A stretch of DNA of 44,221 nt, from IMG/VR virus record IMGVR_UViG_2721755643_000005, one strand, 5' to 3'. This DNA is from a virus (lineage: Duplodnaviria; Heunggongvirae; Uroviricota; Caudoviricetes). Each line of letters starts with the position of its first letter. Within the stretch, counting starts at the first letter, position 1. Under the pieces are notes generated by a model. It saw only the letters and a list, made by a program, of their open reading frames with translations, did not search any database and was not told the origin of the DNA. Positions 1,454 through 6,650 of this stretch are shown here, in pieces. Both the position numbers and the translations under genes were made by a program.

Positions 1454-1552
1454 CGCATCACCTCTGGCAGGCGCCAATGTTAGGCTGAAATTGACGCCCG
1501 ATGTTGATTATTAATAATCAGCTATGAAGTTTTAATTTGAATACAATGCAAT

Positions 1553-1741
1553 TCACGAGGACTGAAGTTTCTCGCAATTAAAATTTATCAGTTTTACTTT
1601 CTGCTCTCTGGAAACGCCTGCTTCTTTTTCCCCTGAGAGCATTTTTTCGCATTCTGATTTCGTTAGTTTTGTCTTTGAGTATCTTGTCCAGCTGGCAGGA
1701 GAACCACCTTCCTTTTCAATAGTGGCTGTAATTTTATACAT
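1553..1741 (-). CDS. Hypothetical small phage protein
   Basis: 62-aa ORF from ATG at 1741 preceded by GGAGGTG. Confidence 0.4.
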   Translation of the reverse strand: MYKITATIEKEGGSPASWTRYSKTKLTKSECEKMLSGEKEAGVSREQKVKLINFNCEKLQSS

Positions 1742-1791
1742 GAACACCTCCATTAATATTTTCAAAAACCGTGTCCAAAATGCACTTGGTT

Positions 1792-2889
1792 TTACACCGG
1801 AATATTCTCATCGTATCCTGCTTGTTGCGTTTCGTTTTGTGTTTGTGGATCCGGGAATGCATATTCAACGCCTTCCAGTTCAATCCATAGTGCATTACGA
1901 CCAGCTTTGATTGTCGGCCAGTCCATACCTTTGATTCTTTCCCATGAGCGGGAGGTGAATGTTTTTTCCAGCAAATCAGCTTTTGCGCGTTTGGCGTCGT
2001 TACTGGTGCCCCCATGGTGCTTGTTGAGCAACTCGATAATTTCATCAAGTGCGATTTCTTTTGCACGCTTTTCTTTTAGCCATGTCGGTGTACCGTCGTT
2101 GGCAAATAATTCACTGTTATCCCGTGAGGTATCGATGCCGAGGTGTTCACCTCCCAGGTTAAGAAACTCGATATGAGGAAGAAAGTTTTTAAATGTTGGG
2201 TTTGAAAATACCTGTCCATCAATACGGGTGGAGCGATCTTTTAGTATTCTGGCGGTGCGCCACACCTGACCGGTTTCTATGTTCATTTGCTTCTCCATCT
2301 GGATCAGGATGGAGGGTTCATAACCGGTTTCTGTTTCTGCTTTCATTTTTATACCGGTTTTTGCCAACTGGCGTTTGCCATCATCACCTTCGAAAAAGTC
2401 ATACTCATATCCTGCACGCCCGCACATAATAATGTGCGCCTGACTGTTAACAAATCGATCGGTAAAGCGTCGCCACTCCTGTTTGAGCCACGCCCAGTCT
2501 GAAAATTCCAGTCCTCGTTTACGGTTTCGGCGTCTGGCATACTCGTCGCATAATCCGGTCCAGAAGTGACTGATGGAGTCGATGATCATTACGGAACCGC
2601 TGCTTTCCGCTTCATTAATGGCTTCAAGCAGATCAACAAACGAGCGGGTTTTTGCCGTAAATAATTCGATATTTTCCGCATCAAAGCGGGGTTTAACCCA
2701 GTCAGAGCCTGTTTCTGTGTCCAGAAACATTACCGGGCGGTTACCAGCTTCAATTCCCCGTTGCCGCATAAGCATTACCAGACCAATAGCCAGTTCGCTT
2801 GCTGTGTAGGTTTTGCCGTCGCCAGCAAACCCCATAATTCCTGCTTTTAGATAGGCCTGTGTGTTTATTGCTCGTTGAAAAAGCGCCAT
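1792..2889 (-). CDS. P-loop ATPase, possibly Sak4/RecA-like recombination ATPase (product uncertain)
   Basis: 365-aa ORF; N-terminal Walker A GFAGDGKT and Walker B-like VMIIDSISHFW; GGAGGA upstream; tightly packed with neighbouring genes. Confidence 0.6.
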   Translation of the reverse strand: MALFQRAINTQAYLKAGIMGFAGDGKTYTASELAIGLVMLMRQRGIEAGNRPVMFLDTETGSDWVKPRFDAENIELFTAKTRSFVDLLEAINEAESSGSVMIIDSISHFWTGLCDEYARRRNRKRGLEFSDWAWLKQEWRRFTDRFVNSQAHIIMCGRAGYEYDFFEGDDGKRQLAKTGIKMKAETETGYEPSILIQMEKQMNIETGQVWRTARILKDRSTRIDGQVFSNPTFKNFLPHIEFLNLGGEHLGIDTSRDNSELFANDGTPTWLKEKRAKEIALDEIIELLNKHHGGTSNDAKRAKADLLEKTFTSRSWERIKGMDWPTIKAGRNALWIELEGVEYAFPDPQTQNETQQAGYDENIPV

Positions 2890-2894
2890 AGATT

Positions 2895-3191
2895 TTAGTC
2901 CTCCAAATCAATATCAACCTGGTGGTGGGCAATGGTTTCAGCCATGTACCGGATGTGTTCTGCCATGCGCTCCTGAAACTCAACATCATCATCAAATGCG
3001 TGGCTGATTGCCTGTTTATTGGCACCGTGGCGTTGCAAATGGTCGATGCAGAGCGATTCAAACAGGTGCTGAGGCAGACCTTTTTCCAGGTCGTCCGCCA
3101 GTTCCGTTTCTTTTTCTTCACGAACGATCTGCTGGTAGTGGCGAGCCCATGCCATTTCTTCAATACGATCAAAAATCGGGTAAGCGCTCAT
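2895..3191 (-). CDS. Hypothetical protein
   Basis: 98-aa ORF from ATG at 3191 with GGAGTGA SD; overlaps the stop of the upstream 646-aa gene, suggesting coupling. Confidence 0.45.
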
Positions 3192-5109
3192 CACTGGTCA
3201 CTCCAAAATTTTCAAGCTTGTTGGCAATCATCATTGCGATGTCAGGGATTGCAGGCGCATAGGCTATGCACGCAGGATTCGCACATAAACCGTAAACCGC
3301 CGCAATCAACACCTGTTTTTTCCAGTTGAGTTCATCTTCGCCAGTTTCATTATTGCTATCATTATGCTGATCGCTGCCAGCGTTCTCCGGTAACAAATCA
3401 TCAGCTTTTTCCGTTTTCTTCGGCTCTTCTTCCTGTGCTTCATCTGGTTTTTTTTCGTCAAAAGTTTCCTGATAAGTTGCGTCTCCCATCACCGCGCCAC
3501 AGTCAGGGCAGTTATCCTCGCCAGTCTGATTGCAGGGTGTTCCCTCCTCCGGTTCGCTGTTCTGGTGCTGTTTATCTTCAGTCTGTCGCACTTCATTTTC
3601 CGTTTTTTTGACTTCATTTGAGGAGATATGATGACCGGGAATCCATTTCGAATCATTCGGGTCGCTAATCCCTTCAACAAATTCTCCGCGAGAGGCAGCC
3701 AGTAATTTGTCTGCATCGACAGGATTTTTGGGCGGAATGTTTTTCCGGGCTTCATGGAGTTCTGTCCGCAGTTTCTGATATTTCGCATCAACAGCATTTA
3801 CCTGTGACTGAGCATCCAGCGGCTGCGTGTCCTGATGATGTTCAGTTGCATCCGGTTCCACTGTTTCAGCCGTTGCCTGTTCATCTGCCATTGCGCAAGA
3901 TGGTTGCGGTTTTTCTTCATCATCCTGTTTTCCTTCTTCTGTTACACGTTGCGGCATCGGGGCAGAGGAGCGACCGCAGGCAATATCCACGATTTCCGGA
4001 TCAGGGTTGGCATGATCGGTTTCAGTCAGTACCTTGTTCAGATATTCAGTGACGTGCGCGGGGATGACCTCGATACCAATCGGCGCTTCTTTCACTGACG
4101 CAACCACGATGGCGCGGGAATAATCCATCCCGCCAGGCATGGTGATGAATTTGTCGCGGAAAACAGAAAAGGGCGGTTTATTTTCAGCGATAATTTCCTC
4201 GACACGTTTAGCGTGTGCCGGATGAAGGTTATAAATATCCACGTCCATTGAACGGGCCAGTACGCCAGTGGCTACGTCGCGCGCCAGCGACGTCAGATCG
4301 TGGACGAAACCTTCGCCGCGATCGGTGAGGTTCCCGCCGCCAGCATTAGCACCGGAAGCCGTGCGAGTGATACGCGAAACACGATTTCCTTTCATCCACT
4401 CTTTTGTCAGCAGACCGCGATCGGTGTAGTTGGCATCCAGATATGCTTCGAAAAAAGCAGTCATCAGTCCCAGATTTGAATTGCCTGGATTAGGGAAAAC
4501 TCTGTCAGTATCACGCACCAGTTTGTGGAGATCGCGAATTTCCAGCGGATCGAGCAGGCTGGTTTTGTGGGAAACAGCCAGGGCAGTAACAGCTGGTAGT
4601 TCTTCATCCCGAGCAATGTGTAATGCCTGGAGTTCATCGCGTGAAACGTGCGTTACCGGTTTTTCGCTGCCGTGTTGCGCAAGCCAACGAATGGGCAGCT
4701 CCTGGCCAGAAATCGGGAGTAGCATATTCTCCTCAATCTCAGTCATGTCTTCGCCGTTGACGTTGGTATTGTCAGTGCTGGCTGGTTTGTCCTGAACAGA
4801 GGGAGAAGATGCGATAAATACCATTGTGATGCCATCTTCCCCGCCTTTTTCGTAACGGTTGCAGAATTCCGTATCAAACACGCCTTCTGGTGGGAGGTCA
4901 TCAACAACGGGCAAATTGACGCGAACAGGTTTTTTAAAGTCATCTTCATCGTAGCCAGCATCGTCAATCGCAACAGCACCACGGGAGATGGCAATGGATA
5001 ATTTTTTCGCTTCAGCCCAGTAAAAACCGCCTTTAATACCGAGGCGTTTTCTTACTTTGTCATTTTTTGCTTCGTAATACAGTGGGTAAACTTGTTTATC
5101 GGTGCTCAT
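3169..5109 (-). CDS. Hypothetical large protein with acidic low-complexity region and C-terminal Cys-rich zinc-ribbon-like motif
   Basis: 646-aa uninterrupted ORF; motif [13 protein letters not shown] and C-terminal CANPAC; long D/E-rich stretch; no family recognised from sequence alone. Confidence 0.6.
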
Positions 5110-5132
5110 TGTTTTTTAACCTCAACTCATAT

Positions 5133-5429
5133 TCAGATTGCATAAAAGAAACGAACTGATGATGCGATATGAGAGAGTTCTTTCAGTCGTTGATAACTGA
5201 TACCGTATTTCTTGTCAGCCTCTTCAATGCGAGCTGTGAGTAATGCAATTTCTTTAATGGCACATACACAACAATCAAATGTTCCCAGAACGTAACCGTC
5301 ATCAATAATTACCGTGACGTTTTCTTTTTGGGAAATCTGAATGAAACTATGTAATGTATTCCCACATTTAAATTCGGCGAGAGAATCGTTAATAACATCA
5401 AGTTCAATTTCACATTCAATAATGCTCAT
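5133..5429 (-). CDS. Hypothetical protein
   Basis: 98-aa ORF from ATG at 5429 preceded by AGGAAACAGCA. Confidence 0.4.
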   Translation of the reverse strand: MSIIECEIELDVINDSLAEFKCGNTLHSFIQISQKENVTVIIDDGYVLGTFDCCVCAIKEIALLTARIEEADKKYGISYQRLKELSHIASSVRFFYAI

Positions 5430-5503
5430 TGCTGTTTCCTTTTTTAAGGTTGAGTGAATCCCTGCCATTGCTGGCATAAATTCAGTTTCGAATATTCAGT
5501 TAA

Positions 5504-5791
5504 TTAAAGTTCGTGTGCCATCTTGTCTTTTTCGGCACAAGCTGCACTGCAATATTTTCGTTTCTTTCTGGCAATCATGTTTCCATGCATATAAATAAGC
5601 TCGCCAGTAAAAGCTTTTTCAGGTAAAAACTGTTTATTGCAGAGATGGTAATCACATTGTATTAAATCCAGGTCACCTTTTTGCTGGAGAATTTTTCTGA
5701 TTCTCCACAGCCATTTTTTAATCCCGGTATGACTGATGGTCTGCCTGAGGGCAGGTGTAAAACAATAATCAAGCATGGGGTTCATATCCAT
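5504..5791 (-). CDS. Hypothetical Cys-rich small protein
   Basis: 95-aa ORF with CDYHLC ... CSAAC cysteine pairs; exact start among 5791/5785/5776 uncertain. Confidence 0.4.
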   Translation of the reverse strand: MDMNPMLDYCFTPALRQTISHTGIKKWLWRIRKILQQKGDLDLIQCDYHLCNKQFLPEKAFTGELIYMHGNMIARKKRKYCSAACAEKDKMAHEL

Positions 5792-5801
5792 AGCTCCATT
5801 T

Positions 5802-6650
5802 TTATTTTAAGGAAAGCAACTGCTCTACGGTCATGTTTTTAATTGCGCCCCGGTTTACAAGAGTCCAGCCCTGTTTTTCCAGGTAGAACTGGAAAGTATC
5901 CAGGGTACAGACCAGTGCGCCATCAGGAACAGTTTCGGTGAATCTGATATTGCCGCGTTCGTCGAAGTGAACTACGAGAGTACGGCCATCTCCTGGGATA
6001 ATTTTGTCAGCGGGCAGGGTATTATTCTGGCGCAGTTCGGCCTCCATGCGGTCGAATTCAGCGATGTAGGCCTCTTTGAATGCAGCGGCTTTTTTACCAG
6101 TGAAACCCATCACCAGGAAAACGAAGCCGTTTTTGGTGATTTGGTACATTGGGCGTTTTTCGCCTTTGGCGTCGGTATAGGTGACGGGCTTAAAATTAAG
6201 CCGGTTAAACTCCGGCGAGCATTCGAGAGTTTCGATCTTCTGAATAACGTTTTTGTGCATTTTCCGGAAGAACTCCGCAACCGCAACAGACGTAGTGACA
6301 GCGCGACCATTTTCGATGGTTACGTCAGGGTGAGAAAGGGTAAGGATAGTAGCCATGATGGCAGCCTCGATAGTCAGTTTAAATAACTCACCACCAGAGG
6401 TAGCAATCTCATGGGTGGTGAGACGCACAGGGTTGCTACAACCGGTGACTACCGAAACCGGCCAGCCTTGCGGCTGCCCTGCACGCCCCACCATAATCTG
6501 AATGTGGCTGTGCTTGACGCATAAAAAAACCGCCTGAGCGCGGTTATGCGCAGTAGTCATCGTCGGGGTAGCAATCCCGGCACCCGTTTTATGAGGTGCA
6601 GGTGCACTATAATTCCACCCGTTCTGGTTTTCAATAGCTACATTCAACAT
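5802..6650 (-). CDS. Rha-family phage regulatory protein
   Basis: C-terminal half carries the Rha-type signature (AVAEFFRKMHKNV ... YQITKNGFVFLVMGFTGKKAAAFKEAYIAEFDRMEAEL); N-terminal extent and true start uncertain. Confidence 0.6.
   Translation of the reverse strand: MLNVAIENQNGWNYSAPAPHKTGAGIATPTMTTAHNRAQAVFLCVKHSHIQIMVGRAGQPQGWPVSVVTGCSNPVRLTTHEIATSGGELFKLTIEAAIMATILTLSHPDVTIENGRAVTTSVAVAEFFRKMHKNVIQKIETLECSPEFNRLNFKPVTYTDAKGEKRPMYQITKNGFVFLVMGFTGKKAAAFKEAYIAEFDRMEAELRQNNTLPADKIIPGDGRTLVVHFDERGNIRFTETVPDGALVCTLDTFQFYLEKQGWTLVNRGAIKNMTVEQLLSLK

What the first reader, a model, noticed from the sequence alone, without database searches (positions are those of the whole stretch)
1792..5109. 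Tightly coupled early-left cassette: 646-aa acidic zinc-ribbon protein, 98-aa protein and P-loop ATPase beside int/xis
These three minus-strand genes overlap or abut and occupy the slot where lambdoid phages usually carry exo/bet/gam-type recombination functions. The ATPase has clear Walker A/B motifs, but its length and its 646-aa partner do not match a recombination module I recognise. It may be an unusual recombination module or an anti-defence/defence cargo cassette.
Basis: inference. Interest (0 to 1): 0.6.

Follow-up and report, generated by a model that had tools for sequence, protein, structure and literature searches.

The report
Mosaic phage recombination module without nuclease
The three genes are the recombination module of a Rac-type E. 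coli prophage, in which a RecE protein lacking its nuclease, the RecBCD inhibitor Gam and a RecA-fold ATPase (Sak4-like, with an extra domain) replace the usual exonuclease/annealase pair; it is an uncommon variant of a known kind of module, not a new system.

Summary
Three tightly coupled minus-strand genes (646, 98 and 365 aa) lie between the early-left genes and ydaC/xis/int of a prophage at the Rac (ttcA) site.

- **98-aa protein:** lambda Gam (PF06064, E=8e-56).
- **646-aa protein:** the N-terminal region of RecE (residues 1-591), ending in a conserved 45-aa hydrophobic tail instead of the nuclease domain. This is the "RecE-2" type noted in 2025 with unknown role. It is under purifying selection, so it is not a pseudogene.
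- **ATPase:** a RecA-fold protein of Pfam AAA_24, the Sak4 family. It carries a roughly 110-aa helical C-terminal domain that core-only Sak4 lacks.

The ATPase gene replaces ralR-exo-bet of a sister prophage almost exactly at gene boundaries. In 46 related loci it sits directly behind gam. In 8 Burkholderiales-type loci an SSB gene follows it, immediately in 7.

Most likely mechanism: Gam blocks RecBCD, and the ATPase binds and anneals ssDNA with host SSB and host nucleases. RecE-2 would be an accessory. This is inferred, not shown.

No defence-system profile matches. I rate it a new variant of a known kind, of moderate interest.

The parts
3169..5109 (-). RecE-2: a 646-aa acidic protein made of the RecE N-terminal region and a short conserved tail, with no nuclease domain
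   Evidence: PF06630 E=1e-36. phrog_607 positions 1-622 of 883. NF007259 positions 1-596 of 877, at 1062 bits, below the 1269 cutoff. No PDB sequence match, so no match to any solved chain, which would include the RecE nuclease domain. dN/dS 0.22-0.31 against two diverged homologues.
3337..5109 (-). The part of RecE-2 homologous to full-length RecE (residues 1-591)
   Evidence: BLASTP against Rac-SA53 RecE ends at residue 591. DNA homology to recE ends at window position 3336.
3172..3336 (-). RecE-2-specific C-terminal tail (residues 592-646). The hydrophobic core is [41 protein letters not shown]. The last 23 nt overlap gam.
   Evidence: The tail is conserved in Shigella phage 75/02 Stx gp06 and in the E. 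coli R1 prophage, and absent from RecE. Tail dN/dS is 0.10-0.15. No Pfam match.
3499..3534 (-). Degenerate zinc-ribbon motif (C526, C534-x2-C537). The first Cys of the ancestral CxxC is deleted.
   Evidence: Alignment with the R1 and 75/02 homologues, which have CTACGQ...CPDCG. Invariant C526, C534 and C537 in A2.
2895..3191 (-). gam: a 98-aa lambda-type Gam, the RecBCD inhibitor
   Evidence: PF06064 E=8e-56 over profile positions 1-97 of 98. phrog_259. RefSeq annotation in the 99.9%-identical E. coli locus.
1792..2889 (-). 365-aa RecA-fold ATPase of the AAA_24 (Sak4) family: core residues 1-230, helical C-terminal domain, acidic disordered tail
2809..2832 (-). Walker A motif (GFAGDGKT, residues 20-27)
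   Evidence: Invariant in 30 homologues of 60-87% identity.
2575..2592 (-). Walker B strand (VMIIDS, residues 100-105). Upstream of it, the invariant D57-T-E59 resembles the RecA catalytic-Glu motif (IDAE).
   Evidence: D104, S105, D57, T58 and E59 are invariant. The comparison with RecA motifs rests on my own knowledge.
1870..2193 (-). Family-specific helical C-terminal domain of the ATPase (residues about 233-340)
   Evidence: Helices at pLDDT 85-93. No Pfam match. Found in 366 cluster representatives; in the listed ones of about full length it lies behind the ATPase region, and an AAA_24 core was confirmed in 8 of 10 checked. [quoted passage not shown]
1795..1842 (-). Disordered acidic C-terminal tail ending in DENIPV
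   Evidence: pLDDT below 50 for residues 350-365. The [DE][DE][IVLM]P motif occurs in 35 of 167 family tails, against 3.5 in shuffles.
1765..2892 (-). The exchanged segment: the ATPase gene with its immediate flanks. It replaces ralR-exo-bet of a sister prophage.
   Evidence: blastn against the E. coli R1 prophage: the flanks (1504-1764 and 2893-5139) are 89-92% identical and the interior is unrelated. Against Rac-SA53, positions 1-1764 are 97% identical.
5133..5477 (-). Upstream small gene (phrog_2434, function unknown). It is a frequent neighbour of the module, is not RacC, and may not be part of the mechanism.
   Evidence: phrog_2434 E=2e-40. 39% identical to the gene just upstream of gam in a Cronobacter prophage. 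No similarity to RacC.

Best explanation
This is the homologous-recombination (Rec) module of the early-left operon of a Rac-type lambdoid prophage, in a rare mosaic form. The three genes are transcribed together and are translationally coupled.

**Step 1, Gam.** Gam binds host RecBCD and blocks it. This protects linear and rolling-circle phage DNA. It is inferred from family membership.

**Step 2, the ATPase.** The 365-aa RecA-fold ATPase is the module's recombinase. Like Sak4 of HK620, it would bind ssDNA with ATP and anneal complementary strands, at resected ends or at replication forks. The phage encodes no exonuclease and no SSB. The 3' ssDNA would therefore come from host nucleases or from replication, and host SSB would be the partner. 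Its extra helical C-terminal domain and acidic tail most likely mediate partner or second-DNA contacts. All of this is inferred.

**Step 3, RecE-2.** This is the RecE N-terminal region detached from any nuclease. It would be an accessory acting in trans. Plausibly it is the same activity by which full-length RecE improves end-to-end recombination. This is the weakest step.
For: **Identity of the parts**
- Gam: PF06064 E=8e-56.
- RecE N-terminal region: NF007259 positions 1-596 of 877.
- ATPase: AAA_24 at 52.5 bits, above the gathering score of 27.
- Phage "RecA-like recombinase" models match in BFVD.
- Walker A, Walker B and a DTE motif are invariant. An invariant ETGYEPS loop is predicted to be disordered, like a RecA DNA-binding loop.

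**Position**
- The ATPase gene replaces ralR-exo-bet, with breakpoints at the end of gam and just beyond the ydaC ORF.
- In Rac the same slot holds recT and the recE nuclease part.

**Context in 78 loci**
- Gam lies directly upstream in 46 loci, mostly enterobacterial.
- An SSB gene follows the ATPase in 8 Burkholderiales-type loci (directly downstream in 7); in the Achromobacter loci its start overlaps the ATPase stop. This is the known Sak4-SSB arrangement (PMC5928155, PMC8093625).
- In three of the four 40-42%-identical relatives the next gene is an AAA_23 (SMC/RecF-type) ATPase.

**Other support**
- No other annealase or SSB was found among the early-region ORFs I scanned with Pfam.
- Bobay et al. 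found no lambdoid phage with a RecBCD inhibitor but no recombinase (PMC3784561).
- RecE-2 is selected: dN/dS 0.22-0.31 overall and 0.10-0.15 for the tail.
- RecE-2 recurs upstream of gam with either bet-exo or the ATPase.
- Full-length RecE outperforms the nuclease domain alone in linear-linear recombination (PMC11611040, citing Fu et al. 2012).
Against: - No activity of this ATPase subfamily has been measured. Its PHROG (phrog_1366) is "unknown function", and its match to the Sak4 PHROG is weak (E=1e-8).
- The protein breaks the "core-only, under 290 aa" definition of Sak4 (PMC2896510).
- A Rec module with Gam but no nuclease needs host resection, which is assumed.
- RecE-2 is absent from most loci that carry the ATPase, so it is not an obligate partner. 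Its structure could not be modelled (pLDDT 29).
- Five of the nine complete E. coli genomes with the cassette have an IS element inside it. Selection on the module in resident prophages may therefore be weak.
Confidence: 0.62

Rival explanations
1. The ATPase is a RecA-superfamily motor with a DNA-metabolism role other than strand annealing. Examples would be a mediator that loads host RecA, a helicase-like or replication-restart factor, or a regulator. On this view the phage relies on Gam plus host RecA/RecF functions for recombination.
For: - Fold searches cannot separate recombinases from KaiC, FlaH or DnaB-type ATPases.
- Eukaryotic Rad51 paralogues, which are the top hits, are mediators rather than recombinases (my own knowledge).
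- The extra C-terminal domain is not found in characterised Sak4.
- Some AAA_24 phage proteins are annotated as helicases.
Against: - The gene substitutes exactly for bet-exo.
- It is linked to Gam or SSB across taxa.
- The prophage already has its own DnaB-type helicase and initiator in the early-right operon.
- Characterised AAA_24 members (HK620, PA73 and staphylococcal Sak4) are annealases (PMC5928155, PMC5499656).
Confidence: 0.2
2. The cassette is accessory defence or anti-defence cargo. Gam would act as an anti-RecBCD factor, and the ATPase and RecE-2 as a superinfection-exclusion or counter-defence pair.
For: - Early-left regions of lambdoid prophages often carry such cargo; ralR sits in this very slot in sister prophages.
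- Gam does neutralise RecBCD.
- Phage recombinases are themselves targets of defence systems (PMC11846896), so swapping them could be an escape route.
Against: - None of the six proteins tested hits PADLOC.
- All three belong to recombination families.
- The ATPase is 60-87% identical in hits named from beta- and gammaproteobacterial genera, in the same pre-integrase position. That fits a core phage function better than fast-evolving cargo.
Confidence: 0.08
3. The module is a decaying remnant. The 646-aa ORF would be a truncated recE pseudogene left by an illegitimate deletion, as RefSeq annotates it, and only gam and/or the ATPase would still function.
For: - PGAP flags the ORF as "incomplete; missing C-terminus" in the 99.9%-identical locus.
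- It scores below the NCBIfam RecE cutoff.
- The window copy has lost one zinc-ribbon Cys.
- IS insertions are frequent in the cassette.
Against: - Open frames of 646-682 aa are kept in homologues down to 55% identity, with the same non-RecE tail.
- dN/dS is 0.22-0.31 overall, 0.10-0.15 in the tail and 0.04-0.14 in the core.
- The ORF stays translationally coupled to gam in three lineages.
- PGAP calls the R1 homologue an intact CDS.
Confidence: 0.07

Closest known systems
Sak4 of phage HK620 (HkaL) and its module sak4-ssb-abc2 (Hutinet et al. 2018, PMC5928155); Sak4 structure PDB 8rc5
   Same: - AAA_24 family.
- RecA-like core with Walker A and B.
- Sits in the early-left Rec module of a lambdoid phage, next to a RecBCD-neutralising gene and without a dedicated exonuclease.
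- Relatives of the window ATPase are followed by an SSB gene.
   Different: - 365 aa with a helical C-terminal domain of roughly 110 aa and an acidic tail, whereas Sak4 is defined as core-only (under 290 aa).
- Sequence similarity is confined to the core, at about 30% identity to the AAA_24 phage proteins found by tblastn; 18% identity to 8rc5.
- It falls in a different PHROG (1366 rather than 124).
- Its partner here is Gam (an inhibitor), not Abc2 (a hijacker).
- There is no phage SSB in this window.
Lambda Red (gam-bet-exo), including the RecE-2-gam-bet-exo version in Shigella phage 75/02 Stx and the E. coli R1 prophage
   Same: - Same operon position and orientation.
- Same Gam.
- Same RecE-2 gene upstream, with the same tail and the same coupling.
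- The flanks are 89-92% identical to the R1 prophage.
   Different: Bet (a Rad52-type annealase) and Exo (a 5'-3' exonuclease) are both missing. A single RecA-fold ATPase gene stands in their place.
Rac prophage RecET (recE-recT)
   Same: - Same attachment site (ttcA).
- int, xis and ydaC are 97% identical.
- The first 591 residues of the 646-aa protein are homologous to RecE (61% identity to RecE of Rac-SA53; 86-88% to the 884-aa E. coli RecE proteins).
   Different: - No PD-(D/E)XK nuclease domain (RecE residues 564-866).
- No RecT.
- No RalR.
- Gam is present.
"RecE-2" proteins of Zheng, Casjens, Smith et al. 2025 (PMC12315714)
   Same: They are described as relatives of Rac and Gifsy-1 RecE that lack a nuclease domain, are encoded in lambdoid early-left operons, and have an unknown role. 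The 646-aa protein fits that description.
   Different: I could not check that the window protein is in their set, because no supplementary tables were held. New here: the conserved hydrophobic tail, the evidence for purifying selection, and the alternative fusions of the N-terminal region (PDDEXK nuclease, DEDD exonuclease, or none).

Membership tests
Lambda Gam (PF06064) | Full-length profile match above the curated threshold, at about 98 aa | tested here: met
   186.8 bits against a cutoff of 25, covering profile positions 1-97 of 98. phrog_259 E=5e-54.
Lambda Gam (PF06064) | Binds and inhibits RecBCD | not testable with these tools
   Would need a RecBCD inhibition assay, or plating of T4 gene 2 mutant phage.
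RecE / exonuclease VIII | N-terminal RecE region (PF06630; NF007259) | tested here: met
   PF06630 E=1e-36. NF007259 positions 1-596 of 877, but the total score of 1062 is below the equivalog cutoff of 1269.
RecE / exonuclease VIII | C-terminal PD-(D/E)XK nuclease domain (RecE 564-866; PF12684) | tested here: not met
   Homology to RecE stops at residue 591. No PF12684 hit. No match to any PDB chain. Full-length relatives do carry PF12684.
RecE / exonuclease VIII | Paired with a RecT annealase gene immediately downstream | tested here: not met
   gam and the ATPase follow instead. RecT is present in Rac-SA53.
Sak4 (core-only RecA-like annealase, Pfam AAA_24) | AAA_24 profile match above the gathering score | tested here: met
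   52.5 bits against 27, residues 14-187.
Sak4 (core-only RecA-like annealase, Pfam AAA_24) | RecA/Rad51-type fold with Walker A, Walker B and a catalytic Glu | tested here: met
Sak4 (core-only RecA-like annealase, Pfam AAA_24) | Short, core-only architecture: under 290 aa with no C-terminal domain (criterion of Lopes et al. 2010, PMC2896510) | tested here: not met
   365 aa, with a confident helical domain at residues 233-340. That domain is conserved in 366 cluster representatives.
Sak4 (core-only RecA-like annealase, Pfam AAA_24) | Membership of the Sak4 PHROG (phrog_124) | tested here: inconclusive
   E=1e-8 over the core only. The best family is phrog_1366, "unknown function", at E=1e-79.
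Sak4 (core-only RecA-like annealase, Pfam AAA_24) | Rec-module context: next to an SSB gene and/or a RecBCD-neutralising gene | tested here: met
   Gam upstream in 46 loci; SSB downstream in 8 loci (with Pfam calls in 17 and 18).
Sak4 (core-only RecA-like annealase, Pfam AAA_24) | ATP-dependent ssDNA binding and single-strand annealing, stimulated by SSB | not testable with these tools
   Needs biochemistry or recombineering assays.
Two-component SynExo recombinase (Red-alpha/beta, RecE/T) | A 5'-3' exonuclease gene plus a Rad52-superfamily annealase gene | tested here: not met
   Neither was found in the cassette or among the other early-region ORFs I scanned.
Known anti-phage defence systems (PADLOC-DB 2.0) | Profile match of any cassette protein | tested here: not met
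   No hits at E<=0.01 for six proteins.

The most novel reading that the evidence does not exclude
Two linked claims remain possible.

**A long Sak4 class.** The "long Sak4" proteins (RecA core, a private helical C-terminal domain, and an acidic tail that resembles the SSB C-terminus) would be a distinct, widespread class of phage recombinase. The C-terminal domain would supply the second DNA-binding or partner-binding surface that core-only Sak4 lacks. One gene could then replace the whole bet-exo pair, and might even support strand exchange.

**A portable RecE N-terminal module.** The RecE N-terminal region would be an autonomous module that works in trans with any recombinase (RecT, Bet/Exo or the ATPase). 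It would be attached to a PDDEXK nuclease, to a DEDD nuclease, or to nothing but a docking tail.
Probability: 0.15. Interest if true: 0.6.

Novelty: new variant of a known kind. Interest (0 to 1): 0.4.

Why it matters
**The ATPase.** If it is a single-gene, nuclease-independent recombinase, it is a compact candidate for recombineering. It is 60-87% identical in hits named from gamma- and betaproteobacterial genera, so it could suit non-model Proteobacteria. It would also show how a RecA core can be extended differently from RecA, Rad51 and Sak4.

**RecE-2.** The function of the 560-600-residue N-terminal region of RecE has been unknown since RecE was described. Here that region occurs as a free-standing, selected protein, and elsewhere it is fused to two unrelated nucleases. 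That marks it as an independent functional unit and gives a clean genetic handle: delete RecE-2 without touching any nuclease.

**Annotation.** RefSeq currently labels some copies as pseudogenes and names others "exodeoxyribonuclease", although they have no nuclease domain.

Tried and rejected
- **RecE-2 structure.** AlphaFold2 with the only alignment available (15 sequences, at least 82% identical) gave mean pLDDT 29. The model was unusable, so I ran no fold search on it.
- **Homologues of the RecE-2 tail.** A search with the 61-aa tail alone returned only nine short fragments and cost one of three searches. I took tail conservation from pairwise comparisons instead.
- **RecE-2 ending in an SSB-like tail.** The window copy ends ...LPDF and R1 ends ...MPDF. 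Phage 75/02 ends ...GGDKS, so this idea is dropped.
[quoted passage not shown] The idea is not supported, though it was a profile-against-single-sequence test only.
- **Pfam on the isolated C-terminal domain and on the RecE-2 tail.** Nothing was found.
- **ATPase against PDB by sequence.** Neither the single sequence nor the profile gave any hit. Similarity to RecA and Sak4 is visible only in the fold.
- **Other dead ends.** The afdb50 fold library was unavailable. No supplementary tables of PMC12315714 were held. PADLOC gave no hits.
- **Chi sites.** The window has 4 against 1.5 expected, and 7 of 100 shuffles reach 4. This is not informative.
- **Upstream 114-aa ORF as RacC.** There is no similarity.
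Full report
**1. What is there**

The window begins inside a lambdoid prophage integrated at the Rac site. A 99.9%-identical locus in E. coli RMDEC332 lies next to ttcA.

Reading the minus strand in the direction of early-left transcription, the genes are:

| Coordinates | Product |
|---|---|
| 5802-6650 | Rha/Ash regulator |
| 5504-5791 | YdaE family protein |
| 5133-5477 | small protein of unknown function (phrog_2434) |
| 3169-5109 | the 646-aa ORF |
| 2895-3191 | the 98-aa ORF |
| 1792-2889 | the 365-aa ATPase |
| 1553-1765 | ydaC (DUF1187) |
| 1238-1477 | xis |
| 1-1236 | int |

The three genes of the finding are tightly coupled.
- The 646-aa frame runs 23 nt past the ATG of the next gene. 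A GGAG lies 8-11 nt before that ATG.
- Five nucleotides separate the second stop codon from the ATPase ATG, with GGAGGA just upstream.
- No credible terminator intervenes.

One detail needs correcting. The "zinc ribbon" is CxxC-x8-CxxC in relatives, but the window copy has lost the first Cys through a roughly 15-aa deletion.

**2. Identity of the parts**

*The 98-aa protein* is lambda Gam. PF06064 matches at E=8e-56 over the whole profile.

*The 646-aa protein* is the N-terminal region of RecE.
- It matches PF06630, phrog_607 positions 1-622 of 883, and NCBIfam exodeoxyribonuclease VIII positions 1-596 of 877. The NCBIfam score is below the family cutoff.
- Alignment with RecE of phage Rac-SA53 ends at residue 591. 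DNA homology ends at window position 3336.
- Published work places the RecE nuclease at residues 564-866 and calls the N-terminal part "of unknown function" (PMC11611040). That nuclease is absent here: PF12684 does not match, and no PDB chain matches.
- In its place is a 55-residue tail with a hydrophobic core, [41 protein letters not shown].

This is not a broken gene.
- The same architecture and tail occur in gp06 of Shigella phage 75/02 Stx (682 aa, 55% identity) and in an E. coli R1 prophage (665 aa).
- Nei-Gojobori dN/dS is 0.22-0.31 over the whole gene, 0.10-0.15 over the tail and 0.04-0.14 over the central core.
- RefSeq is inconsistent. It flags the ORF as a pseudogene in one genome and as an intact "RecE family exodeoxyribonuclease" in another.

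A 2025 survey of lambdoid Rec modules mentions "RecE-2" proteins that lack a nuclease domain and have unknown roles (PMC12315714). The window protein fits that description.

The homologue list adds a further point. The same N-terminal region is found fused to three different C-termini:
- a PD-(D/E)XK nuclease (PF12684, about 884 aa);
- a DEDD 3'-5' exonuclease (PF16473, 814 aa);
- no nuclease at all (646-671 aa).

It therefore behaves as an independent module.

*The 365-aa protein* belongs to Pfam AAA_24, the family that holds Sak4 annealases.
- The Pfam match is 52.5 bits against a cutoff of 27, over residues 14-187.
- Its best PHROG is phrog_1366, "unknown function" (E=1e-79). The Sak4 PHROG matches only weakly (E=1e-8).
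- A good AlphaFold2 model (pLDDT 86) shows three parts: a RecA-type core (residues 1-230), a helical domain (about 233-340), and a disordered acidic tail (350-365).
- Foldseek against viral models finds AAA-domain and "RecA-like recombinase" phage proteins.
- Walker A, Walker B and a D-T-E motif are invariant in 30 homologues. From my own knowledge, the D-T-E motif sits where RecA has its catalytic glutamate. An invariant ETGYEPS loop is predicted to be disordered, as RecA DNA-binding loops are.

**3. The extra domain**

Sak4 was defined as a mini-RecA. Lopes et al. accepted only proteins under 290 residues, to exclude C-terminal domains (PMC2896510). HK620 Sak4 is called "core-only" (PMC5928155). 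The window protein fails that criterion.
- Its C-terminal domain has no Pfam match.
- Searched on its own against 1.84 billion cluster representatives, it finds 366 clusters.
- In nearly all full-length hits it lies at about residues 225-365, behind the ATPase core. Eight of ten longer hits that I checked have an AAA_24 match.

This is a distinct "long" subfamily.
- Among the 120 best of 2050 homologues it is 60-87% identical. Hits are named from Shigella, Salmonella, Cronobacter, Atlantibacter, Pseudomonas, Achromobacter, Roseateles and Aquabacterium.
- It is rare in cultured phages. Four of 50,697 records cover at least 80% of the query; the one listed in the output is Cronobacter phage phiES15.

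**4. Context**

Comparison with sister prophages shows a clean cassette exchange.
- Window positions 1504-1764 and 2893-5139 are 89-92% identical to the E. coli R1 prophage.
- Window positions 1765-2892 (the ATPase) replace R1's ralR-exo-bet, with breakpoints at the gam stop and just beyond the ydaC ORF.
- Against Rac-SA53, positions 1-1764 are 97% identical. The slot there holds ralR, recT and the nuclease part of recE.

I compared 78 loci that carry the ATPase (Pfam checks).
- Gam is the gene directly upstream in 46 loci, nearly all of the enterobacterial ones.
- RecE-2 is present only in the E. coli/Shigella loci.
- An SSB gene follows the ATPase in 8 Burkholderiales-type loci (directly downstream in 7); in the Achromobacter loci its start overlaps the ATPase stop. 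This is the documented Sak4-SSB arrangement (PMC5928155, PMC8093625).
- In three of the four relatives at 40-42% identity, the next gene is an AAA_23 (SMC/RecF-type) ATPase.

Further points:
- The ORFs I scanned in the early regions of the window include no other annealase, no SSB and no lambda-Exo/RecE-type exonuclease; the only nuclease-family hit is a putative YbcO nuclease.
- Bobay et al. found no lambdoid phage that encodes a RecBCD inhibitor without a recombinase (PMC3784561).
- The whole three-gene arrangement is rare. It occurs in 9 of 5,426 complete E. coli genomes, five of them with an IS element inside it.

**5. How it most likely works**

*Established by family membership:* Gam inhibits RecBCD.

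*Inferred:*
- The ATPase is the module's recombinase. Like Sak4, it would bind ssDNA with ATP and anneal it to complementary ssDNA.
- Because the phage supplies neither nuclease nor SSB, host resection or replication-fork ssDNA and host SSB are required.
- The C-terminal domain and tail are candidate partner or second-DNA surfaces. The tail ends in DENIPV. The motif [DE][DE][IVLM]P occurs in 35 of 167 family tails, against 3.5 in shuffles.

*Speculative:* RecE-2 acts in trans as the N-terminal region of RecE does in cis, where full-length RecE improves linear-linear recombination (PMC11611040, citing Fu et al. 2012).

I put 0.62 on this overall picture. The rivals are:
- a non-annealing RecA-superfamily role for the ATPase (0.20);
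- defence or anti-defence cargo (0.08; no PADLOC hits);
- a decaying remnant (0.07; contradicted by the selection analysis).

**6. Comparison and novelty**

The module works like HK620's sak4-ssb-abc2 and occupies the place of lambda's gam-bet-exo. Membership is mixed.
- Gam is a plain member of its family.
- The 646-aa protein is not an exonuclease VIII, because the defining nuclease domain was tested and is absent. It matches the recently named but uncharacterised RecE-2 type.
- The ATPase is an AAA_24 protein but fails the core-only criterion for Sak4.

Each oddity has been glimpsed in the literature. RecE-2 appears in PMC12315714, and some Sak4-like proteins with extra C-terminal domains appear in PMC8093625. 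I therefore rate this a new variant of a known kind, not a new system.

Interest is moderate (0.4). It offers a testable single-gene recombinase candidate and a clean handle on the long-unexplained RecE N-terminal region.

**7. What failed**

- The RecE-2 structure prediction was unusable (pLDDT 29).
- The tail-only homology search returned only fragments.
- Sequence and profile searches of the ATPase against PDB found nothing.
- The afdb50 library and the supplementary tables of the 2025 paper were unavailable.

Noticed in passing
window 12077-13350 (+): An IS3-family insertion sequence sits inside the prophage's replication/nin region. It has an HTH_Tnp_1 orfA (12077-12487) and an overlapping rve orfB (12445-13350), next to a DUF1627 gene.
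   Followed up: no
E. coli genomes H29, H31-H34: Five of the nine complete E. coli genomes with the whole cassette have an IS element inserted in it (IS600, IS911 twice, ISEc60, ISSso6). This may mean weak selection on the module in resident prophages.
   Followed up: no
window 1795-1842 (-) and homologues P0001-P0120, P0250-P0399: Disordered C-terminal tails of the ATPase family often carry an acidic [DE][DE][IVLM]P motif: 35 of 167 tails, against 3.5 in shuffles. It resembles the SSB tail DDDIPF, and a few tails end in -IPF or -VPY. Separately, 45 of 167 end in -AA. The motif is common in close relatives but rare in distant ones (5 of 57).
   Followed up: partly
L017-L019, L073 (about 4699-4983, just upstream of the ATPase): In four Enterobacteriaceae-type loci the gene in Gam's place encodes a 94-aa protein. 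It shares only Gam's first 27 or so residues (MNAYLTYDRIEDRRW; Pfam Gam E=0.099), then diverges and ends in GCPF. It could be a hybrid or an alternative RecBCD inhibitor.
   Followed up: partly
proteins P0201, P0203, P0204, P0226, P0236, P0239, P0241: The RecE N-terminal region (PF06630) is also found fused to a DEDD-type 3'-5' exonuclease domain (PF16473; 814 aa in the complete proteins) in place of the PD-(D/E)XK nuclease. This is a third architecture for the same N-terminal module.
   Followed up: no
L003 7838-9610 versus L083 3700-5697: RefSeq/PGAP annotates the nuclease-less RecE type inconsistently. It is a pseudogene ("missing C-terminus") in NZ_CM177021 and an intact "RecE family exodeoxyribonuclease" in NZ_CP031706. 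Neither label fits a selected protein that has no nuclease domain.
   Followed up: yes
window 5802-6650 (-): A 282-aa early-left protein combines an Ash domain (residues 14-108) and a Rha domain (119-203). It stands where Rac has kilR/sieB-type genes.
   Followed up: no
window 7955, 14061, 14633, 18751: The window has four Chi octamers (three on the + strand) against 1.5 expected; 7 of 100 shuffles reach four. Gam-encoding lambdoid phages are reported to under-represent Chi (PMC3784561), so this prophage does not obviously follow that trend. The count is too small to interpret.
   Followed up: partly
window 5133-5477 (-); L008 6355-6639: The small protein upstream of RecE-2 (phrog_2434, function unknown) is 39% identical to the gene directly upstream of gam in a Cronobacter prophage that lacks RecE-2. 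It recurs near the Gam-ATPase pair in 8 loci and is unrelated to RacC.
   Followed up: partly
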